Counted from the whole stretch's first letter, positions 3,838 to 52,220 are shown. The stretch is DNA of 63,194 nucleotides, filler included, from Phoronis australis (GCA_002633005.1; 5 parts of 5 records of this genome joined end to end with filler, not necessarily neighbours in it), one strand, 5' to 3'. The notes: generated by a model not told the origin, from the sequence alone. Numbers and translations are program-made.

Positions 3838-4716
3838 ATGTTCTGTTCAAAATGAATTACTTTCATCCTAATCAATGCCAATATGAAACTCGAACAAAGT
3901 GTCAAGGTGGGTCTCAGTAGATACAAATTGCAACGCTTTAGCAGTGTTTGTGAGTGCAATGTTTTGAGAAATCCAGAATGAGTCATTCTGAGTTACCGGC
4001 TTGAAATGCAATGAAATTACTTGACCGTGCATTTGCCCATGTTCGCTGACAGAAAGCTATAACTGTATTTTATATGCTACGGGAAGCTGTTAGAGGAATC
4101 ATCATTAAGATATACATGCATTATTGCACTTCTTTTACCCGTACGGTTCTGTGGGGGAACATGGCTTCGGAGCCCCCAACGACTAAGGAGATTTGCAATT
4201 TCGCAGCGAGTTCATCTAAATGTTCCCGTGCACATTATTTCTTTGGTTCACTAGTCTAGTCTGTTCGTGTTTGGAAGCTAAGTGTTTAACTTTGGCATCT
4301 GACTAACCCTACTGGTTATGTTCGTAATACCTCCAGTCCGGCCGTCACCGAGCAACTGGGTGATAACGAGTGTTTTGCAAGTCTAAAACTACATCACACG
4401 GCGATGCTCTCTTGTCCATATTCCACGGAAGAATAATTCTGATTTATCATCGAACAGACTTCAAACTTCCCGAGACAAACCTCAGGTAATTTGGACTACC
4501 GAATTTTGTAGGGTACGGTACGTTCAAAATTAAGTTGAAACCATCTTGTGAACTGCCGAGCAGACTGTGTTAGAACTTCTGACGCCATTGGTTAATTTCG
4601 GAACCTCCGTCTACCGTCTGGTGTCAGGTAAAAGAACTCAATTTGCTGTTATGGACTGGAACTACTCGCTCTAAATTGATACAAAATACGTTGCTTTTCG
4701 GTGTCGTTCTCGTTAA
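3838..4716 (+). mobile_element. Truncated, diverged copy (right part) of Kolobok-like family 1
   Basis: Aligns by eye to ~11576-12679 and, in its right part, to ~31970-32569; degenerate right TIR near 4700-4716. Confidence 0.7.
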
Positions 4717-4718
4717 TA

Positions 4719-5054
4719 GTTTAACCACGGTTTACGCGACGCGAAAATAGATAACGTTTGCAGTGATGTGTTTGGAAAGCGTTGGTCGTTCAAGTGCAGC
4801 GTGAACTGAATACGGATCATATTATCCGACACACATAAAAATATGGATATTCTATACGCCACCTTATCAACTGTGAAATACGGAAAAGTAGAGCCAATCC
4901 GTATATCACGGTAGAAGCCGTATTCAACGATAGAAACCGGATTTAACGGTTGATGTGCTGTATGCTGGTAGACTAAATTTGCATGTACGAACGCCAAATT
5001 TTATTGGGCTCGATCATTTGGATTGGCTATATATTAATGCAAACCGTGGTTAAA
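4719..5054. mobile_element. MITE-like element
   Basis: Terminal inverted repeat tttaaccacggttt / aaaccgtggttaaa. Confidence 0.45.
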
Positions 5055-18556: not shown

Positions 18557-18853
18557 AATTTGCTCGTCTTACCCATCCACCTAATATATCTCGAAGTCTT
18601 AGTGAGATAACTGTGACTTGGCCTCCGTGGTCAAACAAAACGGACTATGGTGTAGGACCAGTTCACAAATACATTGTGGAGTATAAATTAACGACGGCCT
18701 CTGACTGGACACAAAGCGTTGAGATTGACAATGCTGTCACGTCGTATTCAATTCCATCGACAGACGTCCAAAACCAGTACCAAATAAGGATTAGAATAAA
18801 AGTTGACATCAATGACGTTGGAAATCCAAGTTCTGAAGCGTCAGCGTGTGGGC
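18557..18853 (+). CDS. Receptor exon D: FN3 domain 1
   Basis: ttttgcag/gtaaga, phase 1-1; ITVTWPPW...DYGVGPVHKYIVEYK...YQIRI (Tie-like G-x-GP motif). Confidence 0.9.
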
Positions 18854-19200
18854 GTAAGATATTGAAATGTCATGTTTAAAAATCAGGGAATAGACACATA
18901 TTTTAATCGATTTCATACGAGCAATGTCTAAACCACCTGTCCGATTGTCACAAACACTGACCCAGCCACAACCGCTGGGTTTCTTTGGTGTGAAATATCT
19001 ACTTTTAAATTCCTCGTACAATAAACGTGTCTGTCTCTGTCCTTAGAAAGTGTAGATGTTGTATGTTTTGAAGAGATAGCCCTGTATTGGTCTACGGCCA
19101 ATCGTTTGCATTTGCCATCAGGCGACATTTGCTCGGTAACTTAAAATAAATCTCTGCTACATACACACTGAGGTTTGTGACAGTAAATGTTTAATTTCAG

Positions 19201-19262
19201 TTCCACTACTCCCAACCGTACATCTCGCCCTGGAATCAAGTGCAATTCGCGTCACGTGGAAT
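19201..19262 (+). CDS. Receptor exon E: FN3 domain 2, N-part
   Basis: tttcag/gtaagt, phase 1-0; LPLLPTVHLALESSAIRVTWN. Confidence 0.85.
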
Positions 19263-19529
19263 GTAAGTTGATCGTTAAAAGTACATGTAAGGTTGGTTTT
19301 TGAGCCGGTAGACATAAAAACGAAGTCATCATTTATGTCAAACTGTCATTCAAGCCCCCACTGCACTTCCTGTTTGAGCTTCCTAATAATTTTGCAGTAT
19401 CGGCGGCCAAGTTCAGGTTGCACGTTTCATGTTTAAGAAATTCGCATTGCATGTATGTGTTAATAGGAGAGATCGATTCCAAAAGAGCTCCAGCATTGTG
19501 TAGGACTCACTGGTCGTTTAACGTTATAG

Positions 19530-19752
19530 GTGCCTGATTGGCGATGTGACAAAGTAGGCGGCACATACACCCTGTTCTACAAAAACAGCTCAAACTCGGA
19601 CTGGGCAAGTGAAGCTAGTATACCGTCCAGCACGGTGGAAAGAGTGTTCCCTACCTTAGCATGCACTGAGTGGACATTTAAAATACAAGCACACAACAAA
19701 GAATTGAACTCGGACGTCTCACAAAAGATGTCGTTGACCACCCCCGAGAAAA
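19530..19752 (+). CDS. Receptor exon F: FN3 domain 2, C-part
   Basis: ttatag/gtgagt, phase 0-1; VPDWRCDKVGGTYTLFYK...WTFKIQAHN. Confidence 0.88.
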
Positions 19753-21403
19753 GTGAGTGGACACCACGGGCATTTCGAGGGTGTTAATTTTGATGATGTA
19801 GTTGTTGTTGTTGCTGTTTTTAGTGTTTCTGTTGTCACTGTTTACAGTTTCGCTGGTGCACAACCATCGTTCCAGGTGTCTTTGTTTTTTTTTCGATTCT
19901 TTTTCAGCTCTTTTCCAATCCAAAATGACGTTTGGGTAGCTTCCTTGAATCACCAAATGAAATGAACCTCTTTACTTCGATATGCTCAATATATTTTAAT
20001 CGTCTCATAACTTGCGTTGATGAAACTAAATCGTATTTCTGGTCAACGGAAAATATTAATCGTCCCAGGCCTATCTGGTTGTTATTGTTCTATCAAGCGA
20101 ATAATATAGATTTCAGGTCATTTCATTAATTTGCAGCTACTTTACAGCTTCAATTACCCATTTAAGGGACCTTTAAAGACATGACTAAAAGTATAGGTAT
20201 TCGTGGAATAACATATAGTTACTGGCGTTGTGACAGCCTAGTTTACTAAGAAAGTGTGTTTGGCAAATTTTATGGAATTTTTTGTTTGGGAGAAAAATGC
20301 TTTTGATTTTACGCATTTCCAACCTGCATCAAAGTTCATTGAAACATAAGTTTCTTCGGTATTTTTATAATTGGTAAACTTCATTTCGAATCGCGGTTCT
20401 CTTTTACTGTTACGTCCGCTCCATCCATTTTTGCGTTATCGGAAAGTCTAGCGTACATTATCAAAACCAAAATCACGCTAAGGATCTCCACGTTTTTCAG
20501 CATTGATTAGTCTAAGCATTTAGCTATTTTCAATGTCTGGATAAAATCCCCAAAAGCGATTTTATGCCTCTTTTTGACTAAAAGCAGCACACGTAAAGCT
20601 TTTCTGATGAAGGTGTTTTTGAGAGTTACACTTTTCCAATCTTCTAGCAGGGAACTAGGGTCTCATGTCCCTCAAAACTACTGTCAATAAGGAATGAGAT
20701 GAACATATAAATCTTGGAAGGGATACTATGTTTAAAGTAACCTTTTACCATGTGATAACTTGTTGAATTACCAAATGGCTTACGATAGAGACGGTTTGCT
20801 GTTTTATTAGTCCAGGATGTCAAGAGCACCCATGGTTGTTGAAATCAGTTTATAAATGATGCTAAATTGCCTGCACCTTATAGATACATGTACATGTAAC
20901 TCTAATCGTTTCAAAACTATGAGGAAATAGCAACCGTTCTACATTTTGAGTCAAGCATTACTTAAAATGTCCAGTCACTTAATGTTACACACTACAGCAT
21001 ACACTCACATAAGGATATTGACTTGCTCCCAGTAATTACAGACATATCATCCTTGTCACTCTGCAAGACCTTCCTCTCTGAAAATAGCATATCATTCGTG
21101 TATCAAACACTTAAACCACATTTGGACAGAGAAACCAGTTGATAAATGTATTTGTTTTAGCATGGGCGGCGCACCATATGGGGCTGGGAGCTATAGCCTT
21201 CACTTTTTCAGTGGTGCAATACATTGTACTTTTTGTCAATTTTTCATCTTGTGTTTTATATGCCTTCTTAAATACCCTTTTAAGGGTTATTAAATTATCA
21301 AATCTTTTGTACCATTTTTTCAACTAATCCAAAAAATAATGAAGTTATGAATGTTTTAACAATTAAAATCGAAATTTATTGAGCGAATTATTTTTGTCTT
21401 TAG

Positions 21404-21712
21404 AAGCCAAAAAAGTAAAGGCTTTGGTGAGCTCATCAATCACGCATGATACAGTCAGCCTAACTTGGGAAGCTCCAGTTTACAACGGGTGTCCTGTGAA
21501 AAGCTACATAATCCAGTACAACCTTACCGAGGTGCTAGCGTGTGACACTGCGGACCAACCATCAGAGGATTCAAAGACAGACAACACTAATGAACTTGCA
21601 ACTTCACTGGACAACCTACGTCCGTACTCACGTTATGACATTAGTGTACGAGCTAGAACAGACACCTTGGATGGAGAGGAAGAAAAAATCACCATGGATA
21701 CACATCAGTACC
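21404..21712 (+). CDS. Receptor exon G: FN3 domain 3
   Basis: tctttag/gttagt, phase 1-1; VSLTWEAP..NGCPVKSYIIQY...LDNLRPYSRYDISVRA. Confidence 0.92.
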
Positions 21713-21977
21713 GTTAGTAGATGGTGTTGAGGTTTACATATACTAACCTATTACAACTATTTATTTCAATTAGTAACTTCTAAAAGAATCGTGTATTTTG
21801 AGCGTTCAATAAGTAAGTTGAATTCACTAATTTTTGTACCTTCTCGTGGATGGTTTTAAAAGTTATGGAAATCGAAAATTTGATAATTAAGGTAGTATGT
21901 TGTTTAATGACTTGTCTCTAAAGAAGTATTCTGTATTTTTCGATAGGACTGTAAAAGTGTACGGGTTTTTATTTCAG

Positions 21978-22280
21978 ATCCATCTGAATCCCCGCAAAGT
22001 GTCAGGATTGTAGAACGTTCTAATAACACCTTGAAATTCAACTGGGAACATCCACCCTGTTTATCAAGTAATGGGCCTACTAACAACTTTGACTACCAGC
22101 TACAAAGGCAAGCGTCACCTTGTCGTTCTAAGGAGTTTGTCAACGACTCAACTAATGGACTTTCAAAGACGTTTGACCACCTCCAACCCCACGTGACCTA
22201 CAGCTTCAGAGTGCGTGCCGTAAATGGAGAGCTGGCTGGACCTTGGAGTAATTGGACGCGTAATGTTACTAACGAAAGTG
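21978..22280 (+). CDS. Receptor exon H: FN3 domain 4
   Basis: atttcag/gtaata, phase 1-1; LKFNWEHPPC..NGP...LQPHVTYSFRVRAVNGELAGPWS. Confidence 0.92.
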
Positions 22281-23965
22281 GTAATACTTAAACTTTCAGT
22301 TCTAAATGGACAGTGACAAGTTTTTTCCTGTGGCGAGAGACACCAAAATTAAGTGAACACTTGGGTGTAAATATAAACTCCGGTAAAAACTTCTTCATAT
22401 AAACAGGGGCTTCAAATATCCAATTTTGTAAAGGGCTGCCCACTGTTAAAATTAAATTCTCCCTTTTAGAGACGCGACAAAAGCCCCGTTTACATGGCGG
22501 TGTTTACAACAGTGTGTATATTTACTATATTGAGTCATATGAACGCAAATACATCCGGATGTAAAGGCACACTCGGTTGTATACAGTGTACTGACCTTCC
22601 GATTTCGTGCAAATGTAAGTGTAAGTGCAAATATACACCTGATTTAAATGTGATTTAAACTTACGCATGAGTGTGAAAACAAGATCATTCCATCTAAAGT
22701 GCCATTTGGGCCTCATCTCTTCTCAAAGCAACACTAAGCACTTCCCTTTAAACTACTAAAAGATTCTCTGTTGTCACCTGTGAATTGGTAAGGTTTTTGA
22801 CTGAAATGCTGCCGCTGCCACCACGGCAGCCAATGCTGCTGTGTCAAGCTTTCATGGTTGTTATACCACGGTTTTTCTGAATGTACGTCATCGCTTATAG
22901 GTGCAACATTCATACATATAAATTCATCAGGACAAATCAGCCCTTCGGTTCACCCAAACACATTCGTTGTTTCCGAAAGCCAGCACGTCTTGAAGGCGAT
23001 CCGAACAAGCCATCTTGTGTTTACATCAGTAATAGCACATGAAGACAGTTCCAAAGGCAGTTTCAGGAAATTGTTATATTAGAAAATGTTTTTACTAGCA
23101 AACGTTGCTAGTGTCGAATTCGCTGATAAATATAAACGGTACTTAAAGCAACTGTTGCTCTTCTTTTCTGCCACACGACCTTGATGTAAATTCGCATTTA
23201 CTCGCGGGTGTACATGTACTTCGAATGAAATAAATTGTGCAAATACAGGTATGAGATGAGTTACATCAGTTAAGTTAAACAGTGAAAGTCATGGAACGCT
23301 GGACCACAATGAGTTCTGTTTGTAAAATGCTTTGTAGAGAAATTTGACACCCCAGATTTCAGTGGCTGTTTCGCAGATAGCAAGATATACTCAAAACCAT
23401 GTGTTATCATTTAAAATACACGTCACTATCTCGCCTAATCTCGCGAAGTCTAGATCCTAGCGTTAATGAACGCTCCTCTGGTATTTACAATAAAAACTGA
23501 ATTAGGGACAACACCTTGATCCAGATACAAAATGCGTTTCTGAAAGCAGCTCTTTTGGCCCCAGGAGAAAACTTGGCTACGACCAATGGCACTATAGCCG
23601 ACTCCAAGGCTTCACCAATATACTGACCAATGGTGGTGCTGGCATGCTTCTTCTAAACAATATATTTGTGCCGAGGTTAATGGTCACGGGTTTGATGTTT
23701 TATTATGTAATGATAATGAGTGAATTTTAATAACACCATAGTTGCTAAAAATAAACTATCGTGTTGGTCCAACAAGTGTCCATTGTTTGTTTTTGGCATT
23801 ATATTAGAGTGAAGTTTAATAAAGTGTAGTATTGAATAAGTGCAAGCGTCAAATAGTAAATGTAATCCATTAAGTCATTTATGTACGCTTCAGTCATCAA
23901 TAATCACGATATGATGACGTCCTGTCGGTTGTGTATGCACTTCCCAAGAAGTTGGCGAACATCTC

Positions 23966-24004
23966 TGTGTATATATGTGTGTGTGTGTGTGCGTGCGTGT
24001 GTGC

Positions 24005-24043
<39 letters not shown>
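23966..24043. repeat. (GT)n/(GCGT)n compound microsatellite
   Basis: Seen directly; ends ~90 nt upstream of the exon I acceptor. Confidence 0.95.
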
Positions 24044-24047
<4 letters not shown>

Positions 24048-24131
24048 AGAAGCCTGTCTTGTGACATTCAAATAAACCTACGATTGTCTTCTACTGCTAC
24101 TTGTTATCGTACCGCTTTTTAAATGCTATAG

Positions 24132-24346
24132 CTCCACCACCACCAAAGAACCTAAGCGTGGTAGACATGAACCCAACATTCGTCATTATTGGATGGGTGC
24201 CACCATGCCCCCCTAACGGCGTCATACGGGAATATCAACTTAATTACAAAAGTCGCAACGACAATGACGACAACATAACGACTTGTGCAGACTGTTCTTC
24301 CTTGAAGCTTCTTAATTTGGAGGTCAAGAGCACGTACGAAATTAAG
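24132..24346 (+). CDS. Receptor exon I: FN3 domain 5, N-part
   Basis: tatag/gtgagg, phase 1-0; PPPPKNL...IGWVPPCPPNGVIREYQLNY...NLEVKSTYEIK. Confidence 0.9.
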
Positions 24347-24690
24347 GTGAGGTTGAATTGTTTGTTCCTTCTAGTGCCTTTTGCACCCTTCTTTGGAGCT
24401 TGACTTATTACTTGAGAAGTTTTCGTGCTTTTTTCTATCATCATGGAATCCAGTCCCAATTCTATCTTAGCTTATGCCACATAACAATCAGTCCTGATAC
24501 ATGTACATCGATGTTCATATGTTCGTTCAAATGCTGTCATTGGTTAGAATCAATTATCACCCAAAGCTTTCAAGCATGAACCTAGTGTCGTCACGTACAG
24601 TGTCGGAGTGTTAATATTATCAATCGAGATTTGCACGTTATCACGTGGGAAGGAGAGATGTATATTTATTATCTAATATACATATTCCAG

Positions 24691-24757
24691 ATTCGTGCAA
24701 AGACTACTCACTGGGGCAGTTGGAGCATTCCAATTTATGAGACTGTTGAAGAGGGAG
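24691..24757 (+). CDS. Receptor exon J: FN3 domain 5, C-part
   Basis: ttccag/gtaggg, phase 0-1; IRAKTTHWGSWSIPIYETVEEG. Confidence 0.85.
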
Positions 24758-25315
24758 GTAGGGCTTAAACCTACGTCTTTGTTTGCTTCACGTGGTCGTG
24801 TAAAGTCGTGCGATCTACGTAGCACGTCATGCACTTTCACATCGACAGTGGTTTGTTTACCGGGTATATCCCATAGGCGTATTTTCGGAAATTCTCGGTA
24901 CATGGTTGTTTTATGCTTTGAAGTCACCTCAGAGAGGTCTCGTTGTGACCATTCAGTAAATTGAGAATCCTGAATGAGTCGCGGGGTTTATGACATGGGC
25001 AAAAGCTCATGGAAACTTCGTCAAAATTGCGGACTTGGGTCCGTGACAGCCGATTCGTTAATCAAAACCATGTCCTTTTCACGGAATTCTGGTTGTTTGG
25101 TTCTTTGTATTAATGTTTTGCAGACGATGAAATGTAAGGCGTATGGATTTCTACTTTGCACTACTTTGTGATTCGTCCACGTTATTAACCAGTAGTGCGT
25201 AGTGCCGAACCACATTCCATTTCATGTAGGGAAATCTAATACCACTTGTAACTCGTTTACATGTAGTCAGAAGGGAAGTCAAATGATGTTTGTACACCGA
25301 TTGCACCATTTTCAG

Positions 25316-25422
25316 TTCCTGAAATGCCAGAAAGCGTTTGGTGCAAGGACGGAACAGCAAAGTCACTTACTGTTTACTGGGTTGAACCAAGTCGAAAAAA
25401 TGGATTCTTAACACAATACAAG
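25316..25422 (+). CDS. Receptor exon K: FN3 domain 6, N-part
   Basis: ttttcag/gtatat, phase 1-0; VPEMPESV...SLTVYWVEPSRKNGFLTQYK. Confidence 0.88.
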
Positions 25423-25750
25423 GTATATTAGTTTCCTATTTTCACGTTATAGTAATGAAAATACAGGAATTAAGATTATAAGGCAATTTGCTTACTGTTG
25501 TTGTAGTCTTGCTTTATATATTCGAACAACATGGAATTGTTCATACCTTACTCTTCAAAAAAGTTTCAATGAACAAAAAAAAAACAATCTGGCGAAAATA
25601 ACTTCTGGTTCGTCCATTAAAGGATGTAAACAATCTCTTAAAGTGTTCTTTGTGGCTACAACGGAGTTTAAGCTCGTGACCGGCAAAGAGCAATGGGCAA
25701 TAGTGGAGTGACATTCGTGAATATGTCTAAAGTTAATTGTACGAGACAAC

Positions 25751-25923
25751 TGACCTATCGCCAGGAGTTTGAGTGACAGCTTAACTGACCATGTAGAACT
25801 CATCATTCTTGACACACCTTTGTTTCCAAGTCGCCATTTTATCTGACAAACAACACGTTGCCGGATGAAGCTTATTATTTGTTAGTCAACATTACGCAAG
25901 GGGGCGGAGCTTGCGATAGGTCA
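25751..25923. mobile_element. 173-bp MITE derivative of the THAP element at 42662-47469
   Basis: TIR tgacctatcgc / gcgataggtca; subterminal sequences match both ends of the long copy. Confidence 0.75.
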
Positions 25924-26335
25924 ATTGCACGTGCGGGCTTCAAAGAACACACCACTACTCCATCAACTCGAATATTGAACCAATTCACGGCGTAGTATGC
26001 ATACATGCCAACAAAAATGAGGGAGACTTCAAGTGAATTTTTCTGAATTTATTAATGTCTTGACAATGCTTCGTGAATTTGATTTGTTTGAACGATTGAT
26101 TTTGAGATTCGTCAGTAAAAAGTCTGTTCTTACGCAACATTCATGCTTCTGTGGTTTGTACGTATGATTCACTTGTACGAGTAGATGATATAGGAAATGT
26201 ACTCAAAGAAAAATTACTAGTCATTTTTGTTCCTTGCCGTCGTTACATTTAGAACATCCAAACATTAAATTTTAGCTCGCTAATAACTGTCCACAAAAAT
26301 GTTTCGACCTCAACAAATTGCTTTTTTTCTTTTAG

Positions 26336-26510
26336 ATATCATGGAAAGATGAACAAGAGAAGTCGTCGTTTGAAACCGTGGGACCAACTATCCGCAAGTT
26401 AAAAATTTCTAACCTGAATCCAGGAACGCGATATAACATTCACGTGGAGGCGAAAAATTCAGTTGGTTTTGGACCACCGGCGACTACAATCTGCTGGACG
26501 AGTTTGTCTG
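26336..26510 (+). CDS. Receptor exon L: FN3 domain 6, C-part
   Basis: tttttag/gtaaga, phase 0-1; ISWKD...ISNLNPGTRYNIHVEAKNSVGFGPP. Confidence 0.9.
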
Positions 26511-27138
26511 GTAAGATATCGATATTGCACTTAATGTACCAGTAAAACATCTTTCATTTCCCTACCAAACTCAGGTTTTGTTTTTGCAATTCCAGTACGT
26601 TTTCCCATAATTGGCTAACGTGGTGAAGAATAAATTATTTGGTAAATTATTTGGAACTATCATCCCCTTTAACTGTTTTTGTTGCATTGTTCGGATATTC
26701 AAACGCTTCAAGCAGAAATGTTCGTGAATTGAAGAATCAAGTTTTGTTTCTGTCAAATTGTCCGGTTTCTTCATTCCACAGTTTGACATTAGTTACAACT
26801 AAAAACGCTTTGGTGACGTCCCAACTCTATAGAGTTGTATGTAGAATGAATGTTCTTGAATAGACTTTTGTATCAGTGCGTATGACGTCTGGTGAATGTT
26901 GATATTGTCGATATTTATGAATCGACTTGGATTGTTAGATACACAGCTGTGTGTAAGAGATAATAAGACACTTCGAGGATCTTTGCGGTCTTGAACTACG
27001 TGCCAGTAACCATGAGATTCGCTATGGTAACTGCTTTGTCGGGACCACTGCGCCTCTTGCTTACTTTTGAGGAAGTGGACCTACGATGTTACAGACGTGC
27101 ATGGTATGCCTTTTAATCAAATTTATATCATTATTCAG

Positions 27139-27247
27139 AAGTTCCAAAGCTTCACATATCGAAGATAGACAAGGACGAAGTGACATCAACTACTGTAACG
27201 CTACCTATTGCACCAGTCGCAGGTTATCCAAACAGCAATGATATCGA
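27139..27247 (+). CDS. Receptor exon M: start of RPTP-like juxtamembrane domain
   Basis: ttcag (NAGNAG, alternative start 27142)/gtaagt, phase 1-2; EVPKL...VTSTTVTLPIAP. Confidence 0.8.
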
Positions 27248-28039
27248 GTAAGTCAACACTTTTGTGGGGAAACAAGAGGTTTCAGATTTTTTCCGCTATT
27301 ATATTTTTGTGGAACGCCTTATTTACGAATTTTGTCTACGAAAAAATAATCGAATGTGTATCTGCAATAAGATTAAAAGTTTATACTGAAGAAACACATG
27401 ATATGGTAAGGAGCCTGATGACTCTTCACTCTTGGAAGAAGAAAACATAGCATGGGTGATCTATACTAGAAACATTCAAATCATGAAATAAAAAGATCAT
27501 TGCATGCCTTAAGTTATAAGTACAAGTACTTACAATCAATTGTTGTGAGCCTGCAGTGTTGTATTTACTATATTGTTATCAGCCTCAGAATGTACTTTAA
27601 GCACTCGAACATCTCTAACTCTTTGATGCCAAGTTATCTTCTAAATCTGTTGGCCTTCAATACATGTAAACAGGCAGAAGCATCTGTCACGAGCACTTTT
27701 TCTTTAAGCTTTTACATCTATATCTGCATTTGTAGTTTACGAGAACGTCCATAGCGTCGTGGCACGGCCCATTTCACAAGATATTTCCACAAAATGGCCT
27801 GTATGTGATGGCTGTAGCGCTACCATCTCTACTGAGACTAATCGTCTCGTGAATATTTTGAAACCGGTACTACCATTATGCTGTCATAGTTGTGAAATTC
27901 AAAATTATCAGCCACATAGCAGTTACGTGGATAAAATTCCTGTGTTCCTATTTTCGACATAGAGTGTACAGTAGGCAGATGATATTAAGGTTTATTTTCA
28001 AACCATTTTGTTTCAACTCCTTAATTTACTTGGAAACAG

Positions 28040-28307
28040 GTTTTACCTTATTGTCGTCGAAAGGAAGAAAATTGTCTCCCGTACAAGGAGAGAAACCATC
28101 GACGTCTCCACCTTAAAAGATTATGAGGAGGCGACGTCTAGTGGCAATTCTCGTTATATAGCCGCTAGGTTGACCGCAGCGGAGATGGAAACAAGGAAGA
28201 CTTTCGTTGTAGGAGACCAAAAGACGTACGGTGGATATAAAAACGTGCCACTCATAGCTGGAGATAGATACAGATTCCTGATCGGAGTTTACGTTCAGAA
28301 CGAATTT
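28040..28307 (+). CDS. Receptor exon N: RPTP-type juxtamembrane domain with furin site
   Basis: acag/gtaagt, phase 2-0; YLIVVE...RTRR...YIAARL...FVVGDQKTYGGYKNVPL...Y as in LAR/PTPRM/PTPRK. Confidence 0.92.
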
Positions 28308-28751
28308 GTAAGTATCTGGATGTTAAAATGCTTACATAATCAAGCAATAACTCAAAGCAGATTAAAGGAGTGAAATTGCCTTACTGTTGGTTGTTTGGTT
28401 TGATCATTGAACACCATTCCCTTTGTTTTCTATGTTCTCGTGCATAATCTTTTCGCAGTGTGTAATCCCGAAACACTCTAGAAGGATGCTCTTCGGCAGT
28501 AATTCCAGTTTTGATGTGAAGTACATGAACGTGATTCGGTGCACCAAAGCTGGCTAAATCACCGTCCTGTTGTTTTTTAACTGGAAGAACAGTACTTCAC
28601 ATGTATTTCAAAATTCCAATTTTGAAAGATATTGGTTTGATGAAAACAGACATTGAATTTTTGTTCTGTCTTGTGTCATTTTCCTCACGACGTTGTACAA
28701 AATGGACTTGGTTCTTTTAGTAAAACTGATGTTTGCTTTCTTATGTTTTAG

Positions 28752-42000: not shown

Positions 42001-43849
42001 TATATGGATGCCACGATAGGCTAGTAAGATATCAAGCATACTCATGAATCAATCGTCTTTCGCCTTCGTGAGTTTGCGAGGTCATGCGAATTTTTTATTT
42101 TATTGCAAGGAATACTCTGCAGGAGTGGGCGGTGCAATATTATTTCATGCCGAAGAACCCGTATCATGAAACTCTTTCTTTCTTCACTTAGACCGAAATC
42201 AGGGCCCGGTCTCCAATCTCCGTACTCAGACTCGAATCATACTCAAACTCGAATTTCATACTCAACTCGAGTACAGACTCAGCTTTGGTGTATTCAATGT
42301 CATACTCGAAAAATGTGTTCTCGAAATTTCGAGCATGTACTCAATTTTCGAGTATACTCGAACTGAAGTGTATCTCATCTATATTTCGATTAAGATTTTG
42401 AGTAAAATTCCGAGTATATGCTCCAAATTCCAAGTTTGGTCTTGCAGTGTGCTTGAAATCGTACTTGAAAATAAATACATGTACGGGCGAGTGAACAAAA
42501 TATCGAAAGGCCACCGACAGACACAGCAACTCTAAAAAATTAAGTCCTCTTACTATATGTCAGCGCTTCAATTTCAGTTCAGAGATAATAATTTTCTCTT
42601 TAAATCTTCTCATTCTTCACCTTATTAACCCGCCGTATCATTGCATGTCATCGCCGCCAATTGACCTATCGCCAGGATTATGACGGACTGCTTAATTGGC
42701 CAATCAGAACGCAGCATTCTTGGAACACCTTCGTCTGCGTTTCCAAGCCGCCATTTTACCCGAAAAACCACACGCAGTCGAGTACAACTTACTTTAATCT
42801 ATAGCTCAAGAAATTGTCCGCTAAGAATGGGGAAACGGTGTTGATATGACGTGTGTAGCACCGACAGCCGTTATGCTGGTCCAGAATAATATCCCGTCAT
42901 TTTTTGGCATGTCCTAAGCCGAAAAATGATGTTGAAAAGCGTAAACTGAACTGTGCGGCCACACGAACAGCTGAACTTAGCGATGTTGCTTGATAACTCG
43001 AAGGCTATAATAAACACAAATATATTAGTTCCAAGATACGCACTTTTCAGCTTGGTGGCTATATGGTGCTGGGGCCCGTTCCAAGAAAACTGTATTAGCT
43101 AAGACAAATCTTAAACTTAAGTCAATTTTAAGACAAATCTTAAGTTTGTCTTAAGTCCGTTCCAAGAAAGTGATCTTAAGTTCGTCTTAAGTTTTTGACT
43201 TAAAGTCCTTGTCTCACGCGTTGTTAACCCTTATTACATGGTTAGAAGATGTTATAAGGATCCAAGAAGTACCTACCCCATAACTAATACACGATCCGTA
43301 CTCGAAAACAGTTTAAATGAACGCGCCACTCACGATTCGCACCCGAAGAAACACCGCCATTTTGAACTTGCCGCGAACCCGGAAGTACAATTCATTCAGG
43401 AACCCAGGCCGAGAAAACGCCGTCAGTGCCACTCGAGCAGTGCCTGTACTGTTACCAGCCAGCAAACGGGGATAAAATGATCGACAGCGCGCCTTAATTT
43501 TAATAAAATCAAACTGCAGACAATTTTATCGAATTTGCTGAAGAAATGTGGCGAATAAATTTTGACAGAAATTATTTTGCCAGACTCGGAACCGCAGCCT
43601 ATCGGACCCGGTGCGGATCGAGACCAGACACTGGCGAACGGTAAATGCATGCGGTTGCAAGCTGTTTTGTCGAAGTAAAATGGTCAAATGATAAATGCTG
43701 CATATATTCAAGGGTAGTTTCAGATACTTGCATGAAATTACGGGCTGGGTAGTCCTGTGTAACACTGCCGCGGCAGATTTTAGTTAGCCTGTCACCAGCA
43801 ACCAGTGAAGACTATAGTCAAAATACAGCTTGTTAGTAGGCCTATACAG

Positions 43850-44003
43850 GGGTGCGTTCAGTAGACGCTAGGACCTACGCTAGGACCTAGCTAAAAAAAC
43901 CTAGTTAAAGTCACATGTTCTTATTCAAAATACACGGCGAAATCTCACGTATTCTCGCGAAGTCTTGCTTTTTAGCGAGGCCCTAGCGTTACTGAACGTG
44001 AGG
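43850..44003. mobile_element. ~150-bp Harbinger-like MITE, copy 1
   Basis: cgttcagta / tactgaacg inverted ends; CAG on both sides. Confidence 0.75.
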
Positions 44004-45335
44004 CAGCTTTGCGCCAAGACTACCCTTAGGCCTAAGTGGTCGCTGGCCACAAACACAAAAAACACGAAAATTGAACAAAGTTTCTTTTTTGTAGCAACGT
44101 TTGTCAAAATGCCATCAACGTTAAATCTTCACAAATTACAAAGTAGCCGATTGAACATGCCTTTCAGTTCAGCTAAAGTCGACATTGTAGGTGCCGCCAG
44201 AAATGAGACGAAGTCCAACGGGAATTGTGAGCACATTTATCACTTAATGAGTAACAACTGCGAGGCTGAAATTTGGTGAACACTGCTAAATTGTGCAGAA
44301 TAGTAAGTAAAGTTATGTCTAACTAAATGTCACCGTAATTTGTTGGCGAAAACAATTTGCACAAAGTTTTAAACTCGTAACTCATCCCGCTGTCCTCCAA
44401 TGTGGCCGACGAGATCCAAACAAAGTGACCCAAGTTTTGCCACAAAACTTGCAATAACTTTACAGTGCTTGCCCCGATTTTGATACTTTTTCGATTTTTA
44501 CTGAGTAGAATGTACTACCTTTCCGAAGATAGCAAAGTACTTTTTCAAAATGAGGAAAAAAAATAAAACCGAAAAAAATAGGTTCGACCCATATTGGTTC
44601 CTAGGTTCGACCGGCCTACGTAAGGAACTAAACACCAATACTATTTTAACATACTAAGTACGCGTAACATTCCAAAAAAAATCAACGACCACAAACTACA
44701 AACTATAAATACACTGCATATGCAAACGAATCACGATACATTACTAATAAAACAATATAATGAAGACTTTTCGAGCAAGCCATAGCACAATCAGTTACAA
44801 GGAAAAAATGGCGGCGGAAAGGTAGTACATTCTACGCAGTAAAAATCGAAAAAGTATCAAAATCGGGGCAAGCAGTGTAAAGTTATGGCAAGTTTTGTGG
44901 CGAAATTTGGGTCACTTTGTTTGGATGGCGTCGGCCATATTGGAGGACAGCGGGATAAGTTACGAGTTTAAAACTTTGTGTAAATTGTTTTCGCCAACAA
45001 ATTACGGTGAAATTTAGTTAGACATATCTTTACTTACTATTCTGCCCGATTCAATAGTGTTCACCAAATTTCAGCCTCGCAGTTGTTACTCATTAAGAGA
45101 AAAATGTGCTCACAATTCCCGTTGGACTTCGTCTCATTTCTGGCGGCACCAACAATGTCGACTTTTGCTGAACATAAAGGCATGTTCAATCGGCTACTTT
45201 GTAATTTGTGAAGTTTTAACGTTGATACATTTTGACAAACGTTGCTACAAAAAAGAAACTTTGTTCACTTTTCGTGTTTTTTGTGTTTGTGGCCAGCGAC
45301 CAGTTAGGCCAAAGGGTAGTCTTGGCGCAAAGCTG

Positions 45336-45486
45336 GCGTGCGTTCAGTAGACGCTAGGACCTACGCTAGGACCTTGCTAAATCCTAGTCAAAGTCACATG
45401 TTCTCATTTAAAATACACGGCAATATCTCACGTAATCTCGCGAAGTCTTGCTTCTTAGCGAGGTCCTAGCGCTACTGAACGGGAGG
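45336..45486. mobile_element. ~150-bp Harbinger-like MITE, copy 2
   Basis: Direct repeat of 43850-44003; CTG on both sides. Confidence 0.75.
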
Positions 45487-46549
45487 CTGTATAGGCCTAC
45501 TAACAAGCTGTATTTTGACTATAGTCTTCACTGGTAGCTGGTGACTGAGGCTAACTAAGGTCTGCCGCGGCAGTGTGACACAGGACTAACCAGCCCGTAA
45601 TTTCATGCAAGTGTCTGAAACTACCCTTGAATATATGCAGCATTTATCATTTGACCATTTTACTTNCAAGGTGAGAGTTGACTTAAAGTTAAGACAAAAA
45701 CTTAAGTCAGTCTTAGCTAAGATTGTTTCTTGGAACGCAAAATAATCTTAGGATTTGTCTTAAGTCAAAAACTTAAGAAAAGTCTTAAACTTAAGTCAAA
45801 AATGAACTTAAGTTAGTTTCTTGGAACGGGCCCCTGGGCTATCTCAGATTTTAACTCCCGAGTTGGCTAAGTCTGGCCGCTTTTGTCTCGGCACCTGCTG
45901 GATCTCAGCACCCTAGCGGTAGTCCCCGGAAATTTTTATTTTATGTTTTTTTATTTATTTCAACCTAATTAACATTATTTTGTTTCGTATCAGAGGTACA
46001 TTTTTGTTATTCATTAACCGTAAGCTGGCGTTCAACTGAACTTCTCTCCCGGTCAAAATTCAGACATTCGATCGGCACAGCGAAGGGCACTGGATTACTG
46101 CCGGAACTCAAAGCCTTGGTCGAGCTGTTGTCACTAAAAATAAACTGTTGAATTACCTCTAGTATACACTATGTCTGTAGAGTTAGAGAGAGCTCATTTT
46201 GGAGTGGTTCAAACATGATATTTAGATTTATGAAGCTTTAAAAAAGAATTTGAGTTATTTTTGTAAATACCCTATTTTTGCAACTACCACACCAGACTTG
46301 TAATCTTTTGTAACCATACCACGACTTAGTGATCATGCTATCTTCAAAATTAAATGAAAGCTAGCTTTATGGAATGAAACTACAAAACAATGCCAAGTTT
46401 ATTAGAAGGTAGGCCTAATTTAAATGCCCTAATGGTGCAAACAGACAATTCCAAAGGCGGATTTGGGGGGGGGGGCATGAGCCCCAGCCCTCCCCCCCTT
46501 GGCTGCCGCCATCAAAATGAAACAGCAACAGCGTGAGGAAATATTGAGT

Positions 46550-46788: not shown

Positions 46789-48093
46789 AATTCCAGACAT
46801 TAATTTTACTTAGACACAGCCCTAGACCTACCGGAGCTAATGGTTTGCCCAGGACAAGATGAGTGTGTACTTGAGCTATGAAACTGAATTTTTTTATCAA
46901 AATATTTCGTTACAAGATTAGAAAAACTATCGAATAGATCTAGTCAGAGACTATAGTGGCATGTGTTGTCTGTAATCTATGACATACTTTACTCCAGGAG
47001 TCCCACCAGTTGTGACCTACTTTTCATTTGGCGAAATTTAGCAGACGACAGAATAATGCGGTGAATCTTCACTGATTTTATTCGAAAGATCATGAAATCT
47101 ATGGAATAATACAGCTAATTCGACTTTAAGGTACATACCCAGCTTTACATGAACATATCGTATCAGTGGCCTTGTCATTTGTAAGGTGAAGGTGGCCCCG
47201 AGGCCGAGGATTTCTTCGGATTTTCGCTGGCTGCTCGAGCACTTATTTTTTCATCGTCACCTTTACAAATTCCCATATCATGAACATACGATTCACTGTT
47301 GAAAAGCATCGCCTCTTGGTCTCTGTCGACGCGTTTTTAAATAGTGCAAAAACACTCATCGATTCCACCCGGAACGTCGTTTAGCGACAGTGTATTTGCC
47401 TCTGACATCTCGTTCGAATGTCGGGTATCACGTGACTTTTCGCATAGGGGCGGAGCTTGCGATAGGTCAATTCATAAACTCCTTACTCTACGATTCCTGG
47501 CAACTGGCGGACCCTTGTCGGCGAGTCATTACAAGTGTCGAAAGCAGTTGCGGGAAAAGTCGTGTGAGAAGTTTGTGCTGCCCTAATTTCAGTAGGTGTG
47601 TCTACGGTTTTTAGGGTTTCCAAAAGACTAGGAGGCGAGTAAAGTTAAAAAGAGTTTGCTTCCCTGTCAGGTACATTTCACGTCATAGTTTAGTCATCTA
47701 TAATTCCTCAATCCCCGAATGGTATTCCAGATTTGGTTTGCAGATTTCTAACTAGACGTCTCGTCCCGTTCACTGGTGAACTTTGAATGCCTGCACATGT
47801 ATTGTTTTTTAACTCACGCGCCAAATGTCAACTAACTTGATACATCCCGGCAAAATACAAAGATACGGTATCAAAGTTTTGACATCAGCGTTGGCCTACA
47901 CAGCAATGGGACAAGTCTAATTAGCAAGAGAGAACGGGTTCTTTGATGTGATAAGCTGTTACAAATTTCTTAAAGGCGAAGGCAACCTTTTTCCATGTCA
48001 TTTTGAGCTAAAATAAGGTTGGTTGGTTATCCTAGACATATTTTCCACTTAATTACAGCTTTTCGTAATTTTATAAATCACTCGTCCGCTACT

Positions 48094-48106
48094 CCGGAAG
48101 TGACGT
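48094..48106 (+). promoter_or_regulatory. ETS-CRE composite motif CCGGAAGTGACGT in left TIR (mirror copy 49533-49545)
   Basis: Exact motif in both TIRs, ~200 and ~130 bp upstream of the two inward-facing ATGs; function inferred. Confidence 0.45.
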
Positions 48107-48307
48107 TTTAGGAGGCAAGCGTTTCCCGCCACTTGGTTTTGCGTTGACTTTACCGTGCGAATCTGTTCTATTCTACTTTTGTTTTGTGCTCTTTTTCAAC
48201 AGTTGTCGCCACCACTTTCCATAGGCGAGTATTCTGCGGCAAGATAGGTTAGTAGAGAACTCAACTACGTTGGATTTAGGGATTGTTTAGTGTGTTGTAA
48301 GCTGAAA

Positions 48308-48605
48308 ATGGCTGGATTCGGTGACCCGTATTACAGTGACAGTAGTGTGAGTGACGGAGACCTTGTTCACAGCAGTGGTGACGAGGAATTTTTTCACGGA
48401 CATTCAGTGGGTGGGTACATGTTTGAGCCCGAGTATAACGAGGCAGAGTACGCACAGGCACAGGCAGCTGTTGAGAGAAACGAGGCAGCTACTGAGGACA
48501 GACGTGGTGACACATCTTGGTGCAAATGCACTGTGTGCGTTGTTATGCCTACCTCAATGGAATGCTTGTGCTGTTCAGAGTTCGACGAGGCCAAGCCACT
48601 ACTGG
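48308..48605 (+). pseudogene. KolX / P2X7-ballast-like (nanor-like) Cys-rich protein, 3' truncated
   Basis: Acidic leader, YMFEPEY, RRGDTSWCKCTVCVVMPTSMECLCCSE; the ORF then reads through antisense transposase DNA to a stop at 48769. Confidence 0.75.
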
Positions 48606-49400
48606 ACGTGGTTAAGTGGACCTCCGGCATACCACGGACAGAGGAACAACTGTCCCACTTGCCAGAGTGTGCCGCGACACACTCCCACATGGATGGTGAC
48701 CTGAGCACCCAAACTGCTTACACCGTGTCGTGTGACTCCCTCGCCACTAACCTGGCACCTTCGAAATAGCTCCAACACTTTAGACAAGTCCAAAATAAAC
48801 TTAGCAAAGTTTGGCTCACCGATCTGTTCACTGGACGACGAACTGTTCTCTTCACTGGGTGTCGAACTGAGCCTGTAATCACTCCCACTACTCAATATCA
48901 GCAGGGCTGCTTAGAGGGTCTGGGCTTGAGAAAACAGCACAGGGCGAAATACTACTGGTTCCAGGAATTGCACGCTGTGGGGTACGTTCGGAGGCACGGG
49001 TGACAGTAGATGAAGTGCCCCCACTGGATCCAGTCATTGTACTGGCCACAGCTCGCGAGGCTTCTCGCTTCAAAAACGCACTTCTCGGGGGTGGCGACGG
49101 GGCACTGCCCGGAATCAACACAGACGAAATGGCATCCTTCTTCAGACGTTGTTTCACAGGGACCTTCATCAGTTCAGCGTACAAATCCCTTTCGTAATCG
49201 GACGGCAGAAAGTGCTTGCCACACACACGGTAATTCTCCGCTGCTTTGTACGTTGCGTGGACGGGTAACGCTGCGTTCTTCACACGAACGAGCCAAGTAC
49301 GGCGAAATGTGTCATCCATCGGAAAGCGATGCAAAGGTACTCCCAAAGCGCACGTGAGCCGATAATTAGTACATCCTGGTAAGCAGCAACAGTGTCGCAT
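48600..49400 (-). pseudogene. THAP-domain transposase N-terminal half, frameshifted, DDE core deleted
   Basis: MRHCCCLPGCTN...LHRFP...W...VCGKHF...LKKDAISS (THAP C2CH); then KFIL..SKVLELFRRCQV and WEC..HSGKWDS...MP in other frames. Confidence 0.85.
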
Positions 49401-50852
49401 GTTGACTGACTAGTAAATGAAAGCAAACGACGACGGAACTTAACACAACCGAGGTAGAACAATGACTGAGTCGGCAGCTCTTTTAGTCAGACTATATGAA
49501 AAGAAATTGGCGCGAAATGCTTGCCTCCTAAAACGTCACTTCCGGAGTCGTGGACGAGTAATTGATAAAATTACGAAAAGCTGTAATTAAGTGGAAAATA
49601 TGTCTAGGATAACCAACCAACCTTATTTTAGCTCAAAATGACATGGAAAAAGGTTGCCTTCGCCTTTAAGACATTATCGGGAGATGAGGAACTCAAGAAG
49701 TAAAGATTAATAATTGTCAAATGTATCAAAGAAATGGTATAAGCGTATTGTATTGAAACTGAAAAAAATGAATAACGGTTTTAGAACACTCAGAATTCCA
49801 CAATTCCACGTTATACTCTTGTAGTTGTAGCGACAGCAGACGATAATGTAGTTGCTGGGGTGATCTATGCCAATAGGGAGCGATGAATCAGCGCGACCGT
49901 GGTTTTGCATTTCACATCATAAAGAGTTCCATTGCAACTCGAGTATGAGTGTCAGATTTGAGTACGTTTGGAGTCTACTCGAAATGCGACATTAGATACG
50001 CTTTTTTGAGTACGACTCCAGTGAGCACGATTTTGAGTATGAAATCTCGAGTATGAGTATGAGTCTGAGTACGAAGATTTGAGACCGGGCCCGGGTTAAC
50101 TTAAAAACAGAATGTATAACACTGTTTCATTTCATAGGATCAAAATTAAAACCGAAAGTTAACCTCAGCTGCAGAGTAGGCTTAAGATTGGACCTTTGAT
50201 TTAAATGACCAGAATTTACGACTGTCATCTCCACTGTAAACTGTTGAGGGAAACATTGTTGACATTTTTGCAATCTAATATCTCTAAACAATATCAAATT
50301 GAAGGTTGTCGGCAAAACTGCGTAGACTGGTAGAGACAATGCAGTGCGATTTACCTGCACGTACGAAACGATATTTCCCAGCCCTATCACGCAAGGGAGA
50401 TCCCAGTTGTGTCCAAAATTTTGTAAATAAATCCTCATTGGTTTTTCCCGATTATTCAATCAACTGTTCATCTTCCAGGAGGTTGCGTACATGCCACAAC
50501 AAATTATCGGAACTGGTTTCATTTAGTTAATGTTTTTAGTATTTTGATACCAGTAAGCCGAAATTCAGAACAAACTTTGCTGCTGGTGAAGCTTTCGTCA
50601 TCAGTCAAGAGAGATGTCGCGAAGAACTTAGGAAATGGTGCGTGTGCGTGCCACGAGCGCACTTCTTTATTACAAAAGGCGGAGAATTACGCAAGAAAAT
50701 GATGTTCGTTAGATTGTTTTTTCACTTAAGCAGCTGTAACGGGAAAAGTGAGTGTCAGTTGACTCCCAGATTTTGCATGCTCCTCCGCCGGTCGTTAGCT
50801 AAACATGCTGATATAAGTTTCACGACGATGTGACGAACAGAACAACCCGGGC

Positions 50853-52220
50853 TGTGTGGAGCTTCGGGGTATAACGAAGCTCAACACACAGATGTATATA
50901 GCCAATGCTCAGCTCTGTAAACAAGGTTTGTTTATTACCGGCCAAGTGGTACCTAGCTCAATTTTGATCATACACCTAGCTGGTTGGCTAAAATCAAAGC
51001 ACTTTTCATGAAACGTCTGTAATCCTAACTGCGCCACTGCTCTCACAATTGAACTTGTCATCGAAACTGATGTTGCTTACATTCAAGTGGAGCTGAAGCC
51101 GTTGAAGCGTTTCCGCGCCAGGATACTAGGAGCTACAAGGACGTCATCCTAATGAAAGACGTTAGATGTCGCGGCGACGAGTCAAATATCATTTTATGTA
51201 GGCACACACCAAGGCAACTGACCAATATTAACGCCTGCGAAAAGGTGGCAGGAGTCGTGTGTAGTACAGAGCCAGACATTTCCAGTGAGTACCAGACTGG
51301 GTTGTAACGTGGGTACTACTTACAGTGGGGATTTTTTAATCTGATTATATGTTGTCATCACTTTTGAGAAGGATATAATTCATAAGATTAGTACCGCCTC
51401 AGAGTAGACACGTAACCCGTGTGTAAATAAATATTTAAAGACACGCTCCACAAGGTTGTTAAATAATGGAACGCACTTTGGCTCAACTATTGCAAATTNG
51501 AGGCAGAGTACGCACAGGCACAGGCAGCTGTTGAGAGAAACGAGGCAGCTACTGAGGACAGACGTGGTGACACATGTGTGGAGCTTCGGGGTATAACGAA
51601 GCTCAACACACAGAGGTATATAGCCAATGCTAAGCTCTGTAAACAAGGTTTGTTTATTACCGGCCAAGTGGTACCTAGCTCAATTTTGATCATACACCTA
51701 GCTGGTTGGCTAAACTCAAAGCACTTTTCATGAAACGTCTGTAATCCTAACTGCGCCACTGCTCTCACAATTGAACTTGTCATCGAAACTGATGTTGCTT
51801 ACATTCAAGTGGAGCTGAAGCCATTGAAGCGTTTCCGCGCCAGGATACTAGGAGCTACAAGGATGTCATCCTAATGAAAGACGTAAGATGTCGCGGCGAC
51901 GAGTCAAATATCATTTTATGTAGGCACACACCAAGGCAGCTGACCAATATTAACGCCTGCGAAAAGGTGGCAGGAGTCGTGTGTAGTACAGAGCCAGACA
52001 TTTCCAGTGAGTACCAGACTGGATTGTAACATGGGTACTACTTACAGTGGGGATTTTTTAATCTGATTATATGTTGTCATCACTTTTGAGAAGGATATAA
52101 TTCATAAGATTAGTACCGCCTCAGAGTAGACACGTAACCCGTCTGTAAATAAATATTTAAAGACACGCTCCACAAGGTTGTTAAATAATGGAACGCACTT
52201 TGGCTCAACTATTGCAAATT
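50853..52220 (+). repeat. ~646-bp near-identical duplication across a single N (probable haplotype overlap)
   Basis: 50853-51498 = 51575-52220 with few SNPs; N at 51499. Confidence 0.85.

What the first reader, a model, noticed from the sequence alone, without database searches (positions are those of the whole stretch)
47974..49665. Kolobok-type transposon pairing a THAP transposase with a P2X7-ballast-like zinc protein
Seen: a TTAA-flanked element with ~158-bp TIRs carries two convergent genes. One is a THAP transposase (-). The other has FEPEY and WCxCxxCxxMxTxxECxCCxE (+). Established: Kolobok elements duplicate TTAA and encode a THAP-DDE transposase plus an accessory KolX protein. The Cys pattern matches the first zinc cluster of the vertebrate P2X7 cytoplasmic ballast (WCxCxxC...ExxCC) and nanor-like proteins. 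Inference: here the ballast domain is transposon cargo, which supports a mobile-element origin of the P2X7 ballast and suggests zinc- or guanine-nucleotide-linked control of transposition. The link may already be noted in the repeat literature, and this copy is truncated.
Basis: partly seen in the sequence, partly recalled or inferred. Interest (0 to 1): 0.8.

Follow-up and report, generated by a model that had tools for sequence, protein, structure and literature searches.

The report
Gutted Kolobok transposon, abundant passenger family
This is a real but ordinary 1.7-kb jumping-gene remnant of the known Kolobok type that has lost its cutting domain and half of its P2X7-tail-like helper gene and is likely moved by intact relatives, and its link to the P2X7 receptor was published in 2022.

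Summary
The element is real: 47974-49665, TTAA on both sides, AG...CT ends, 167-nt inverted repeats (outer 101 nt identical). It is not a working two-gene transposon. One internal deletion (junction about 48596/48597) joins the first ~96 codons of KolX (+) to the first ~268 codons of a Kol0 transposase (-). All DDE residues are gone, as are two of the seven ballast zinc cysteines and all five GDP-site positions; this copy also has two frameshifts. The same deleted form occurs in three DNA runs and two metagenome proteins, with many insertion sites and an empty single-TTAA site, so it is an amplified non-autonomous family. KolX relatives match the P2X7 ballast (profile E 3e-17; structure Z 9.9), but Kojima and Bao 2022 (PMC9587614) already report this and the transposon origin of the ballast. 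Guanine-nucleotide control is unsupported: relatives keep R546 and R578 but not R574 or K583. Side leads: an ETS-CRE promoter motif in each end, a likely A-to-I editing signal in RNA reads, and a possible KP-like THAP repressor (about 10%). The scan has noted this kind of element before on other genomes.

The parts
47974..49665 (.). Whole non-autonomous Kolobok (Kol0) element, 1692 bp, 48% GC, 5'-AG...CT-3'
   Evidence: RNA reads leave the element at 47970 and 49669 into many different flanks
47970..47973 (.). Left TTAA target-site duplication
   Evidence: contig with the empty site and a single TTAA, joint 47965 to 49666
47974..48140 (+). Left terminal inverted repeat, 167 nt
48094..48105 (+). 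ETS-CRE composite motif in the left repeat; likely part of an inward-facing promoter (inferred)
   Evidence: motif described for human promoters in PMC3464117 (abstract); RNA depth rises from the 48117 bin
48308..48596 (+). 5' half of the KolX gene (about 92-96 codons): acidic leader, FEPEY, and the five cysteines equal to P2X7 C477/C479/C482/C498/C499. The frame runs on to a stop at 48769 through antisense transposase DNA
   Evidence: PF20478 24.5 bits vs cut-off 23.5 for residues 1-96; alignment A1
48583..48597 (.). Deletion junction between the KolX piece and the transposase piece (transposase side fixed at 48597; KolX side between 48583 and 48596)
   Evidence: 55 RNA reads in run X17 continue past 48597 with transposase-like sequence in register with P0153 (read by hand); junction bridged by contigs in X6, X7, X8
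48597..49400 (-). 5' third of a Kol0 transposase gene (about 268 codons): THAP domain (49388-49122), low-complexity linker, CxxC...C...H region; frameshifts near 48898-48900 and at 48689; no DDE core
   Evidence: frameshifts absent from most laid reads
49534..49545 (-). [quoted passage not shown]
49499..49665 (-). Right terminal inverted repeat, 167 nt
49666..49669 (.). Right TTAA target-site duplication

Best explanation
This is an internally deleted member of the Kol0 lineage of Kolobok DNA transposons that keeps both ends but lacks the transposase catalytic core and half of KolX, and it is likely cut and pasted into TTAA sites by transposase supplied by an intact relative. Shown: the ends, the TTAA duplication and an empty site, the lost domains, the same junction in other samples, many insertion sites, and RNA from the family. 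Inferred: the parent had the usual tail-to-tail layout (THAP-DDE transposase facing KolX, about 4 kb in distant relatives); one deletion of at least about 1.5 kb fused the two 5' parts; the shorter element then out-multiplied its parent because the transposase needs only the ends. The two gene stumps are probably passengers kept because they lie next to the ends. Each end likely holds an inward promoter, so overlapping transcripts would form double-stranded RNA that the host edits and probably silences. In intact elements KolX is most likely a zinc-stabilised helper of its own transposase rather than a GTP/GDP sensor (my estimate about 60:15, rest other roles; untested).
For: Ends and TSD. Empty site with one TTAA in run X1. 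Loose ends at exactly 47970 and 49669 in 3 of 3 raw RNA runs, 66-107 reads each, agreement 0.35-0.38, meaning many flanks. Transposase pieces match P0153 in order (tblastn E 1e-25 and 4e-14) and end at profile position 174, while the catalytic motifs sit at 240, 306, 328 and 452. P0153's family shows the same core motifs as the Kolobok_1_XT and Kolobok_1_BF rows of Data S5 (compared by eye). 4 of 4 loci with a related transposase have KolX on the opposite strand downstream; 2 of 4 have TTAA-flanked repeats, 3999 and 4423 bp. The deleted form is bridged by single contigs in X6, X7 and X8 and encoded by P0003 and P0201. Of 19 coding differences between this copy and the read majority, 15 change the residue, as expected without selection.
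Against: The autonomous partner was not recovered: no genome is held, terminal-repeat searches found 0 hits in metagenome and viral contigs, and its only traces are 55 reads in 1 of 3 RNA runs and one contig joint. Most family reads lack the two frameshifts (at 48689, 292-318 of 311-355 reads), so many copies may keep an open THAP frame, which also fits a selected repressor. The 15-of-19 count tests only this copy's branch. Library strandedness is not recorded, so convergent transcription is not shown.
Confidence: 0.87

Rival explanations
1. The deleted family is more than a passenger: like the Drosophila KP element, it makes a THAP-containing stump that binds the ends or poisons transposase multimers and so represses its autonomous parent.
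For: The stump keeps a complete THAP domain and about 170 further codons. Most reads lack this copy's frameshifts and the family is well transcribed, 4479-5653 reads laid per 11-13 million records. The KP repressor shares the first 199 residues of P transposase and blocks it in these two ways (bioRxiv 10.1101/2020.10.06.328815, passages).
Against: Open frames are expected in any young family. This copy is frameshifted twice and its differences are 13 residue-changing to 3 silent in the THAP frame. The A>G/T>C excess in RNA points to double-stranded, edited RNA rather than clean mRNA. Other derivatives with other breakpoints exist (loose end at 48633; P0200), so this junction is not unique.
Confidence: 0.09
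2. One reading: the ballast-like protein here regulates transposition through zinc or GDP/GTP binding.
For: Full-length relatives keep all seven zinc cysteines (18-19 of 19) and R546 and R578. Rump et al. suggest from models that such domains may still bind GDP. KolX is retained opposite the transposase in 4 of 4 loci.
Against: This copy has five of seven cysteines and none of the GDP positions; its model is a single helix with pTM 0.38. R574 and K583 are absent in 18 of 18 relatives. No functional data were found in the papers read.
Confidence: 0.02
3. The 1.7-kb structure is an assembly artefact or one-off damage in a draft genome.
For: The window has N-joined duplicated blocks nearby, and a 76-nt piece of this element is repeated exactly after the N at 51499.
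Against: No N lies inside the element. The junction is bridged in three independent DNA runs and two metagenome proteins.
Confidence: 0.02

Closest known systems
Kol0 (Kolobok0) lineage of the Kolobok superfamily, type family Kolobok-1_XT (Kojima and Bao 2022, PMC9587614; Kapitonov and Jurka as cited there)
   Same: TTAA duplication, 5'-RR/YY-3' ends, THAP-bearing transposase of the same motif type, second gene KolX with the ballast fold.
   Different: No DDE core, half a KolX, 1.7 kb. A non-autonomous derivative. Whether Repbase or Dfam already names this family could not be checked.
Xenopus T2-MITE and truncated XKol copies (Hikosaka and Konishi 2018, PMC6004289; passages; author names recalled)
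   Same: Abundant non-autonomous Kolobok partners with a TTAA target and AG termini.
   Different: T2-MITEs end in AGGRR and are short; this element starts AGGCG and keeps about 1.1 kb of coding remnant from both genes.
P2X7 cytoplasmic ballast, Nanor and other 'ZCD' proteins (Pfam PF20478; PANTHER PTHR36981; Rump et al. 2020, PMC7016195)
   Same: WCxCxxC...ExxCC cysteine pattern; full-length relatives align to rat P2X7 471-586 (Z 9.9, rmsd 3.0, 107 residues).
   Different: The window protein stops before C506; it has no C572 and no GDP site; it carries an FEPEY motif upstream that is typical of free KolX-like proteins (127 of 150 hits have [FYWLH]EP).
Drosophila KP element (internally deleted P element)
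   Same: Amplified deletion derivative that keeps both ends and a THAP-coding 5' part of the transposase.
   Different: A different superfamily. KP protein is a shown repressor; nothing of the kind is shown here. An analogy only.

Membership tests
Kolobok superfamily | 4-bp TTAA target-site duplication | tested here: met
   TTAA at both ends; empty site with one TTAA; read ends at 47970 and 49669
Kolobok superfamily | 5'-RR and YY-3' termini with terminal inverted repeats | tested here: met
   AG...CT, 167-nt repeats
Kolobok superfamily | Transposase of Kolobok type (THAP domain, then DDE core with C/DxxH) | tested here: met
   By descent: THAP and downstream pieces match P0153 and profile A3 (E 4e-9 and 3.5e-11), whose core motifs match the Kolobok_1_XT and _BF rows
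Autonomous Kolobok element | Intact DDE catalytic triad | tested here: not met
   Window piece ends at profile position 174; catalytic motifs start at 240; no tblastn hit of the P0153 core anywhere in the window
Kol0 lineage | Second gene KolX on the element | tested here: met
   5' half present; related transposases carry convergent KolX in 4 of 4 loci
Kol0 lineage | Placement in the Kol0 clade of a DDE-core tree | not tested
   The window has no core to place; only motif comparison of relatives by eye
Kol0 lineage | A full-length element with these same terminal repeats carries both genes | tested here: inconclusive
   No such element retrieved; L001-L004 have other ends (no blastn hit)
P2X7 ballast / ZCD (PF20478) | Profile match | tested here: met
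   Residues 1-96: 24.5 bits vs cut-off 23.5; whole ORF 23.3 bits, just under; 20 of 20 alignment members match; profile hits only P2X7 in the PDB, E 2.7e-17
P2X7 ballast / ZCD (PF20478) | Seven cysteines around two zinc ions | tested here: not met
   Window has five; C506 and C572 equivalents are deleted; relatives have all seven
P2X7 ballast / ZCD (PF20478) | GDP site R546, H547, R574, R578, K583 | tested here: not met
   All absent from the window; relatives keep R546 and R578 only, H547 in 4 of 18
P2X7 ballast / ZCD (PF20478) | Ballast fold | tested here: inconclusive
   Met for the full-length relative P0020 (pLDDT 83.6; Foldseek top 14 all P2X7; VIA Z 9.9, next 3.1); the window half gives a poor model and was not fold-searched
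piggyBac (other TTAA superfamily) | Termini unlike 5'-RR, piggyBac-type transposase | tested here: not met
   Ends are AG...CT, which Kojima and Bao give as the feature separating Kolobok from piggyBac; protein matches are Kolobok-type
KP-type repressor derivative | Truncated THAP protein made and shown to repress | not testable with these tools
   Needs copy-level selection test and a transposition assay

The most novel reading that the evidence does not exclude
The amplified deletion family is a KP-like brake on Kolobok: most copies keep an open THAP-plus-linker frame behind an ETS-CRE promoter in the terminal repeat and make a dominant-negative DNA-binding protein, while the facing promoter at the other end makes antisense RNA that is edited as double-stranded RNA, so the element curbs its autonomous parent at both protein and RNA level.
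Probability: 0.1. Interest if true: 0.5.

Novelty: new member of a known kind. Interest (0 to 1): 0.12.

Why it matters
It matters little as it stands: the KolX-ballast link and the proposed transposon origin of the P2X7 tail are in print, and a copy without the GDP site or catalytic core cannot test what KolX does. Its practical use is as a pointer: the family is young, abundant and transcribed, and reads suggest a longer partner is expressed in the same species label, which would supply a cognate transposase-KolX pair for the open question of KolX function. If the THAP stump proved to be a repressor, it would extend KP-type self-regulation from P elements to Kolobok.

Tried and rejected
No whole genome is held, so the genome-wide search for a full-length copy was not possible. 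Terminal-repeat patterns found 0 matches in metagenome contigs and viral contigs. P0153 found no relative among 124 candidate stretches in metagenome contigs; A3 none among 56 in viral contigs. Alignment A1 was too variable for locus scans. The window KolX ORF alone finds nothing in the PDB by phmmer; the link needs a profile. The model of the window's KolX half was too poor to search with. C-terminal halves of 7 full-length KolX proteins and the P0153 core find no trace in the window, so a spliced continuation of either gene inside the window is rejected. No RNA holder was listed by the index; the RNA runs laid were added by species label. No complex prediction was run: no cognate intact transposase-KolX pair was in hand (L001 has a broken KolX, L004 a broken transposase). 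The ETS core motif is absent from the four distant loci, so it is not a lineage-wide feature; it was noticed after the fact and the two copies are one motif duplicated by the repeat. Four supplement names with hyphens were not found because the file uses underscores. Figure S6 (KolX/P2X7 alignment) is a picture and could not be read; it may show more on GDP-site conservation. Repbase and Dfam could not be searched. No place-based look-alikes among earlier scan findings.

Full report
Observation. TTAA lies at 47970-47973 and 49666-49669, and the 1692 bp between start AGGCG and end CGCCT. The terminal inverted repeats are 167 nt at 94.6%, identical over the outer 101 nt; the longest exact inverted match is 107 nt against at most 18 in 100 shuffles. 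A + strand ORF from 48308 holds FEPEY and WCKCTVC...ECLCCSE. A - strand ORF from 49400 holds a THAP domain (PF05485, 47.5 bits, cut-off 23.9).

The minus-strand gene. It is only the front of a transposase. The closest longer relative, P0153 (391 aa), aligns to three successive frames: 49307-49065 (61%), 48802-48689 (50%) and 48687-48613 (64%). Against a profile of 13 relatives (A3; 13 of the 47 hits) the last piece ends at position 174 of 585, while the catalytic motifs lie at 240, 306, 328 and 452. The P0153 core finds nothing in the window. The family's core motifs match by eye the Kolobok_1_XT and Kolobok_1_BF rows in Data S5 of Kojima and Bao, that is, the Kol0 lineage.

The plus-strand gene. 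Residues 1-96 pass the Pfam cut-off for P2RX7_C (24.5 bits vs 23.5); the whole 153-aa ORF falls just under (23.3). A phmmer search gave 188 relatives at E 0.001 or better; 131 of the 150 listed have the five-cysteine pattern. A profile of the fragment and 19 relatives chosen for length hits only P2X7 in the PDB (4 sequences, best E 2.7e-17). The model of a full-length relative, P0020 (pLDDT 83.6), gives P2X7 as the top 14 Foldseek rows and Z 9.9, rmsd 3.0 over 107 residues, next hit 3.1, among 48161 chains. So the homology is sound. The window fragment keeps the equivalents of C477, C479, C482, C498 and C499 but not C506 or C572, and none of the GDP positions (numbering from the rat alignment). 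After about residue 96 the ORF is just the reverse strand of the transposase piece.

The junction. In RNA run X17, 55 reads (agreement 1.0) leave the window at 48597 and, read by hand on the minus strand, continue the transposase frame in register with P0153 residues after the last shared motif. This was seen in 1 of 3 raw runs among the loose ends shown (676 more were not shown). A contig of X5 joins 48583 to 48597 with unknown sequence between, and P0200 departs from the KolX frame after residue 92. The KolX side of the junction therefore lies between 48583 and 48596. At least about 410 transposase codons and about 90 KolX codons are missing.

A family, not one damaged copy. Single contigs bridge the junction with few differences in X6 (48460-48670), X7 (48213-48758) and X8 (48529-48754), runs labelled as two organisms and a marine metagenome. 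P0003 and P0201 from ENA encode the same fused form. In X1, 6927 contigs were laid and depth in element bins (99,000-509,000) exceeds the left flank (15,000-55,000); the tool warns this is no copy number, and the flanks are themselves repeated. One X1 contig joins 47965 to 49666 with a single TTAA; it may be the empty allele or a paralogue of the flanking repeat. RNA reads leave the element at exactly 47970 and 49669 into mixed flanks in 3 of 3 raw runs. The extra base at 48689 is absent from about 9 in 10 reads, and two bases are present near 48898-48900 in many, so the frameshifts belong to this copy or a small subfamily. I classed 19 high-frequency differences that fall in the KolX stump or THAP frame (taken from the 40 rows shown of 312; I left out rows outside those frames and three mixed-frequency rows): 15 change the residue and 4 are silent, close to the neutral share. 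A second derivative, with an inverted copy of the THAP start joined at 48633, shows in 113-130 reads per run.

What intact relatives look like. A scan of genome contigs with A3 gave 4 loci out of 140 candidate stretches. All 4 have KolX hits on the opposite strand downstream of the transposase; L001 (3999 bp, 181-nt repeats) and L004 (4423 bp) are TTAA-flanked with AG starts; no such ends were found for L002 and L003.

How it likely works. Shown: ends, target duplication, loss of the catalytic core, many insertions, transcription. Inferred: it is moved in trans by a cut-and-paste transposase from a longer partner, which recognises the ends through its THAP domain (established for THAP transposases; my own knowledge). 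Each repeat contains CCGGAAGTGACG (48094-48105 and 49534-49545; 2 matches, 0.04 expected), the ETS-CRE motif enriched in human promoters (PMC3464117, abstract), and RNA depth rises about threefold inside these points. Related families that share only the interior could also cause that rise. First mates map to both strands about equally in X15 and X16 and about 1:2 in X17; strandedness is not recorded. Places with A>G or T>C outnumber C>T or G>A by 111:41, 109:44 and 118:56 in the RNA runs, against 38:44, 41:54, 36:50 and 33:27 in DNA contigs (Fisher p 7e-5 to 1.5e-3 against X1, but 0.12-0.45 against X5). This fits ADAR editing of double-stranded repeat RNA, which is common in animals (PMC5625713, abstract), but the runs are from different individuals and were laid with different thresholds.

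KolX and nucleotides. In the 19 relatives, the seven cysteines are kept (18-19 of 19). Of 18 that reach the GDP region, R546 and R578 are kept in all, H547 in 4, R574 and K583 in none. Rump et al. (PMC7016195, passages) found the same pattern and suggested from models that GDP binding may persist. It is neither shown nor excluded for intact KolX, and it cannot apply to this copy. I think a zinc-stabilised helper role is more likely than nucleotide sensing; this is a judgement, not a result.

What is known. Kojima and Bao 2022 (PMC9587614; I read the abstract, background, section 10, passages of sections 12 and 16, and supplement passages) define Kolobok by TTAA and RR/YY ends, state that KolX adopts the ballast fold, and conclude that P2X7 arose by fusion of a P2X4-like gene with KolX and that Nanor is a domesticated KolX. 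It was the only paper returned for Kolobok+KolX and for P2X7+ballast+transposon. Abundant non-autonomous Kolobok partners are described in Xenopus (PMC6004289, passages). I saw no report of a KP-like Kolobok repressor in the listings, and 'repress' does not occur in PMC6004289; this was not an exhaustive search, and Repbase could not be checked. The original Kapitonov and Jurka report and McCarthy et al. 2019 were not read. Earlier scan notes list several intact and broken Kol0 copies in other genomes; I formed my reading before seeing them.

Context. The host is an animal: fibronectin-III and receptor-phosphatase-like exons lie at 18.5-28.4 kb, SRCR exons at 51.1 and 51.8 kb and a kringle exon at 57.4 kb, all on +. 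The element sits in non-coding DNA, inside another repeat.

Verdict. A real, ordinary non-autonomous Kol0 Kolobok element. The headline idea is correct but published, and the regulatory idea is unsupported. Novelty: new member of a known kind. Interest 0.12.

Noticed in passing
window 51499-52220: After a single N at 51499 comes an exact 76-nt copy of 48440-48515 joined to a 646-nt block that duplicates 50853-51498 (98%, SRCR exon). Similar N-joined duplicates at 52393 and 53753. Likely scaffold or haplotype artefacts, so the second SRCR exon may not be real.
   Followed up: partly
window 47940-49700, runs X15-X17: Two- to threefold excess of A>G and T>C places in RNA reads over DNA contigs; likely A-to-I editing of family transcripts; needs DNA from the same individual.
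   Followed up: partly
window 48633 joined to 49352-49420 (reads): A second derivative family in which the transposase piece is joined to an inverted copy of its own start, 113-130 reads per RNA run; it would lack KolX altogether.
   Followed up: no
L001-L004: Kol0 transposase plus convergent KolX in records titled as bacterial and archaeal MAGs. Low coding density and CA microsatellites suggest animal DNA mis-binned or joined into them; L003 and L004 lie in contigs of 2.57 Mb and 0.78 Mb, so these records may be chimeric.
   Followed up: partly
P0099: A pipefish protein model with a THAP domain at the start and a complete KolX/ballast domain at the end; could be a real fusion or an annotation join of two transposon genes. 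Rump et al. note a similar case in a tick.
   Followed up: no
window 43673-44525 and 44815-45665: An 865-nt inverted repeat pair at 88% identity, ending at the N at 45666; probably another foldback or MITE-like element.
   Followed up: no
window 47968-47973 and 49666-49671: The empty target reads TCTTAAGA, a longer palindrome around the TTAA; may reflect target preference.
   Followed up: no
window 18520-28373 (+), 1954-2439 (-): Fibronectin-III and receptor-tyrosine-phosphatase-like exons, and an integrase-core (rve) fragment near the window start.
   Followed up: no
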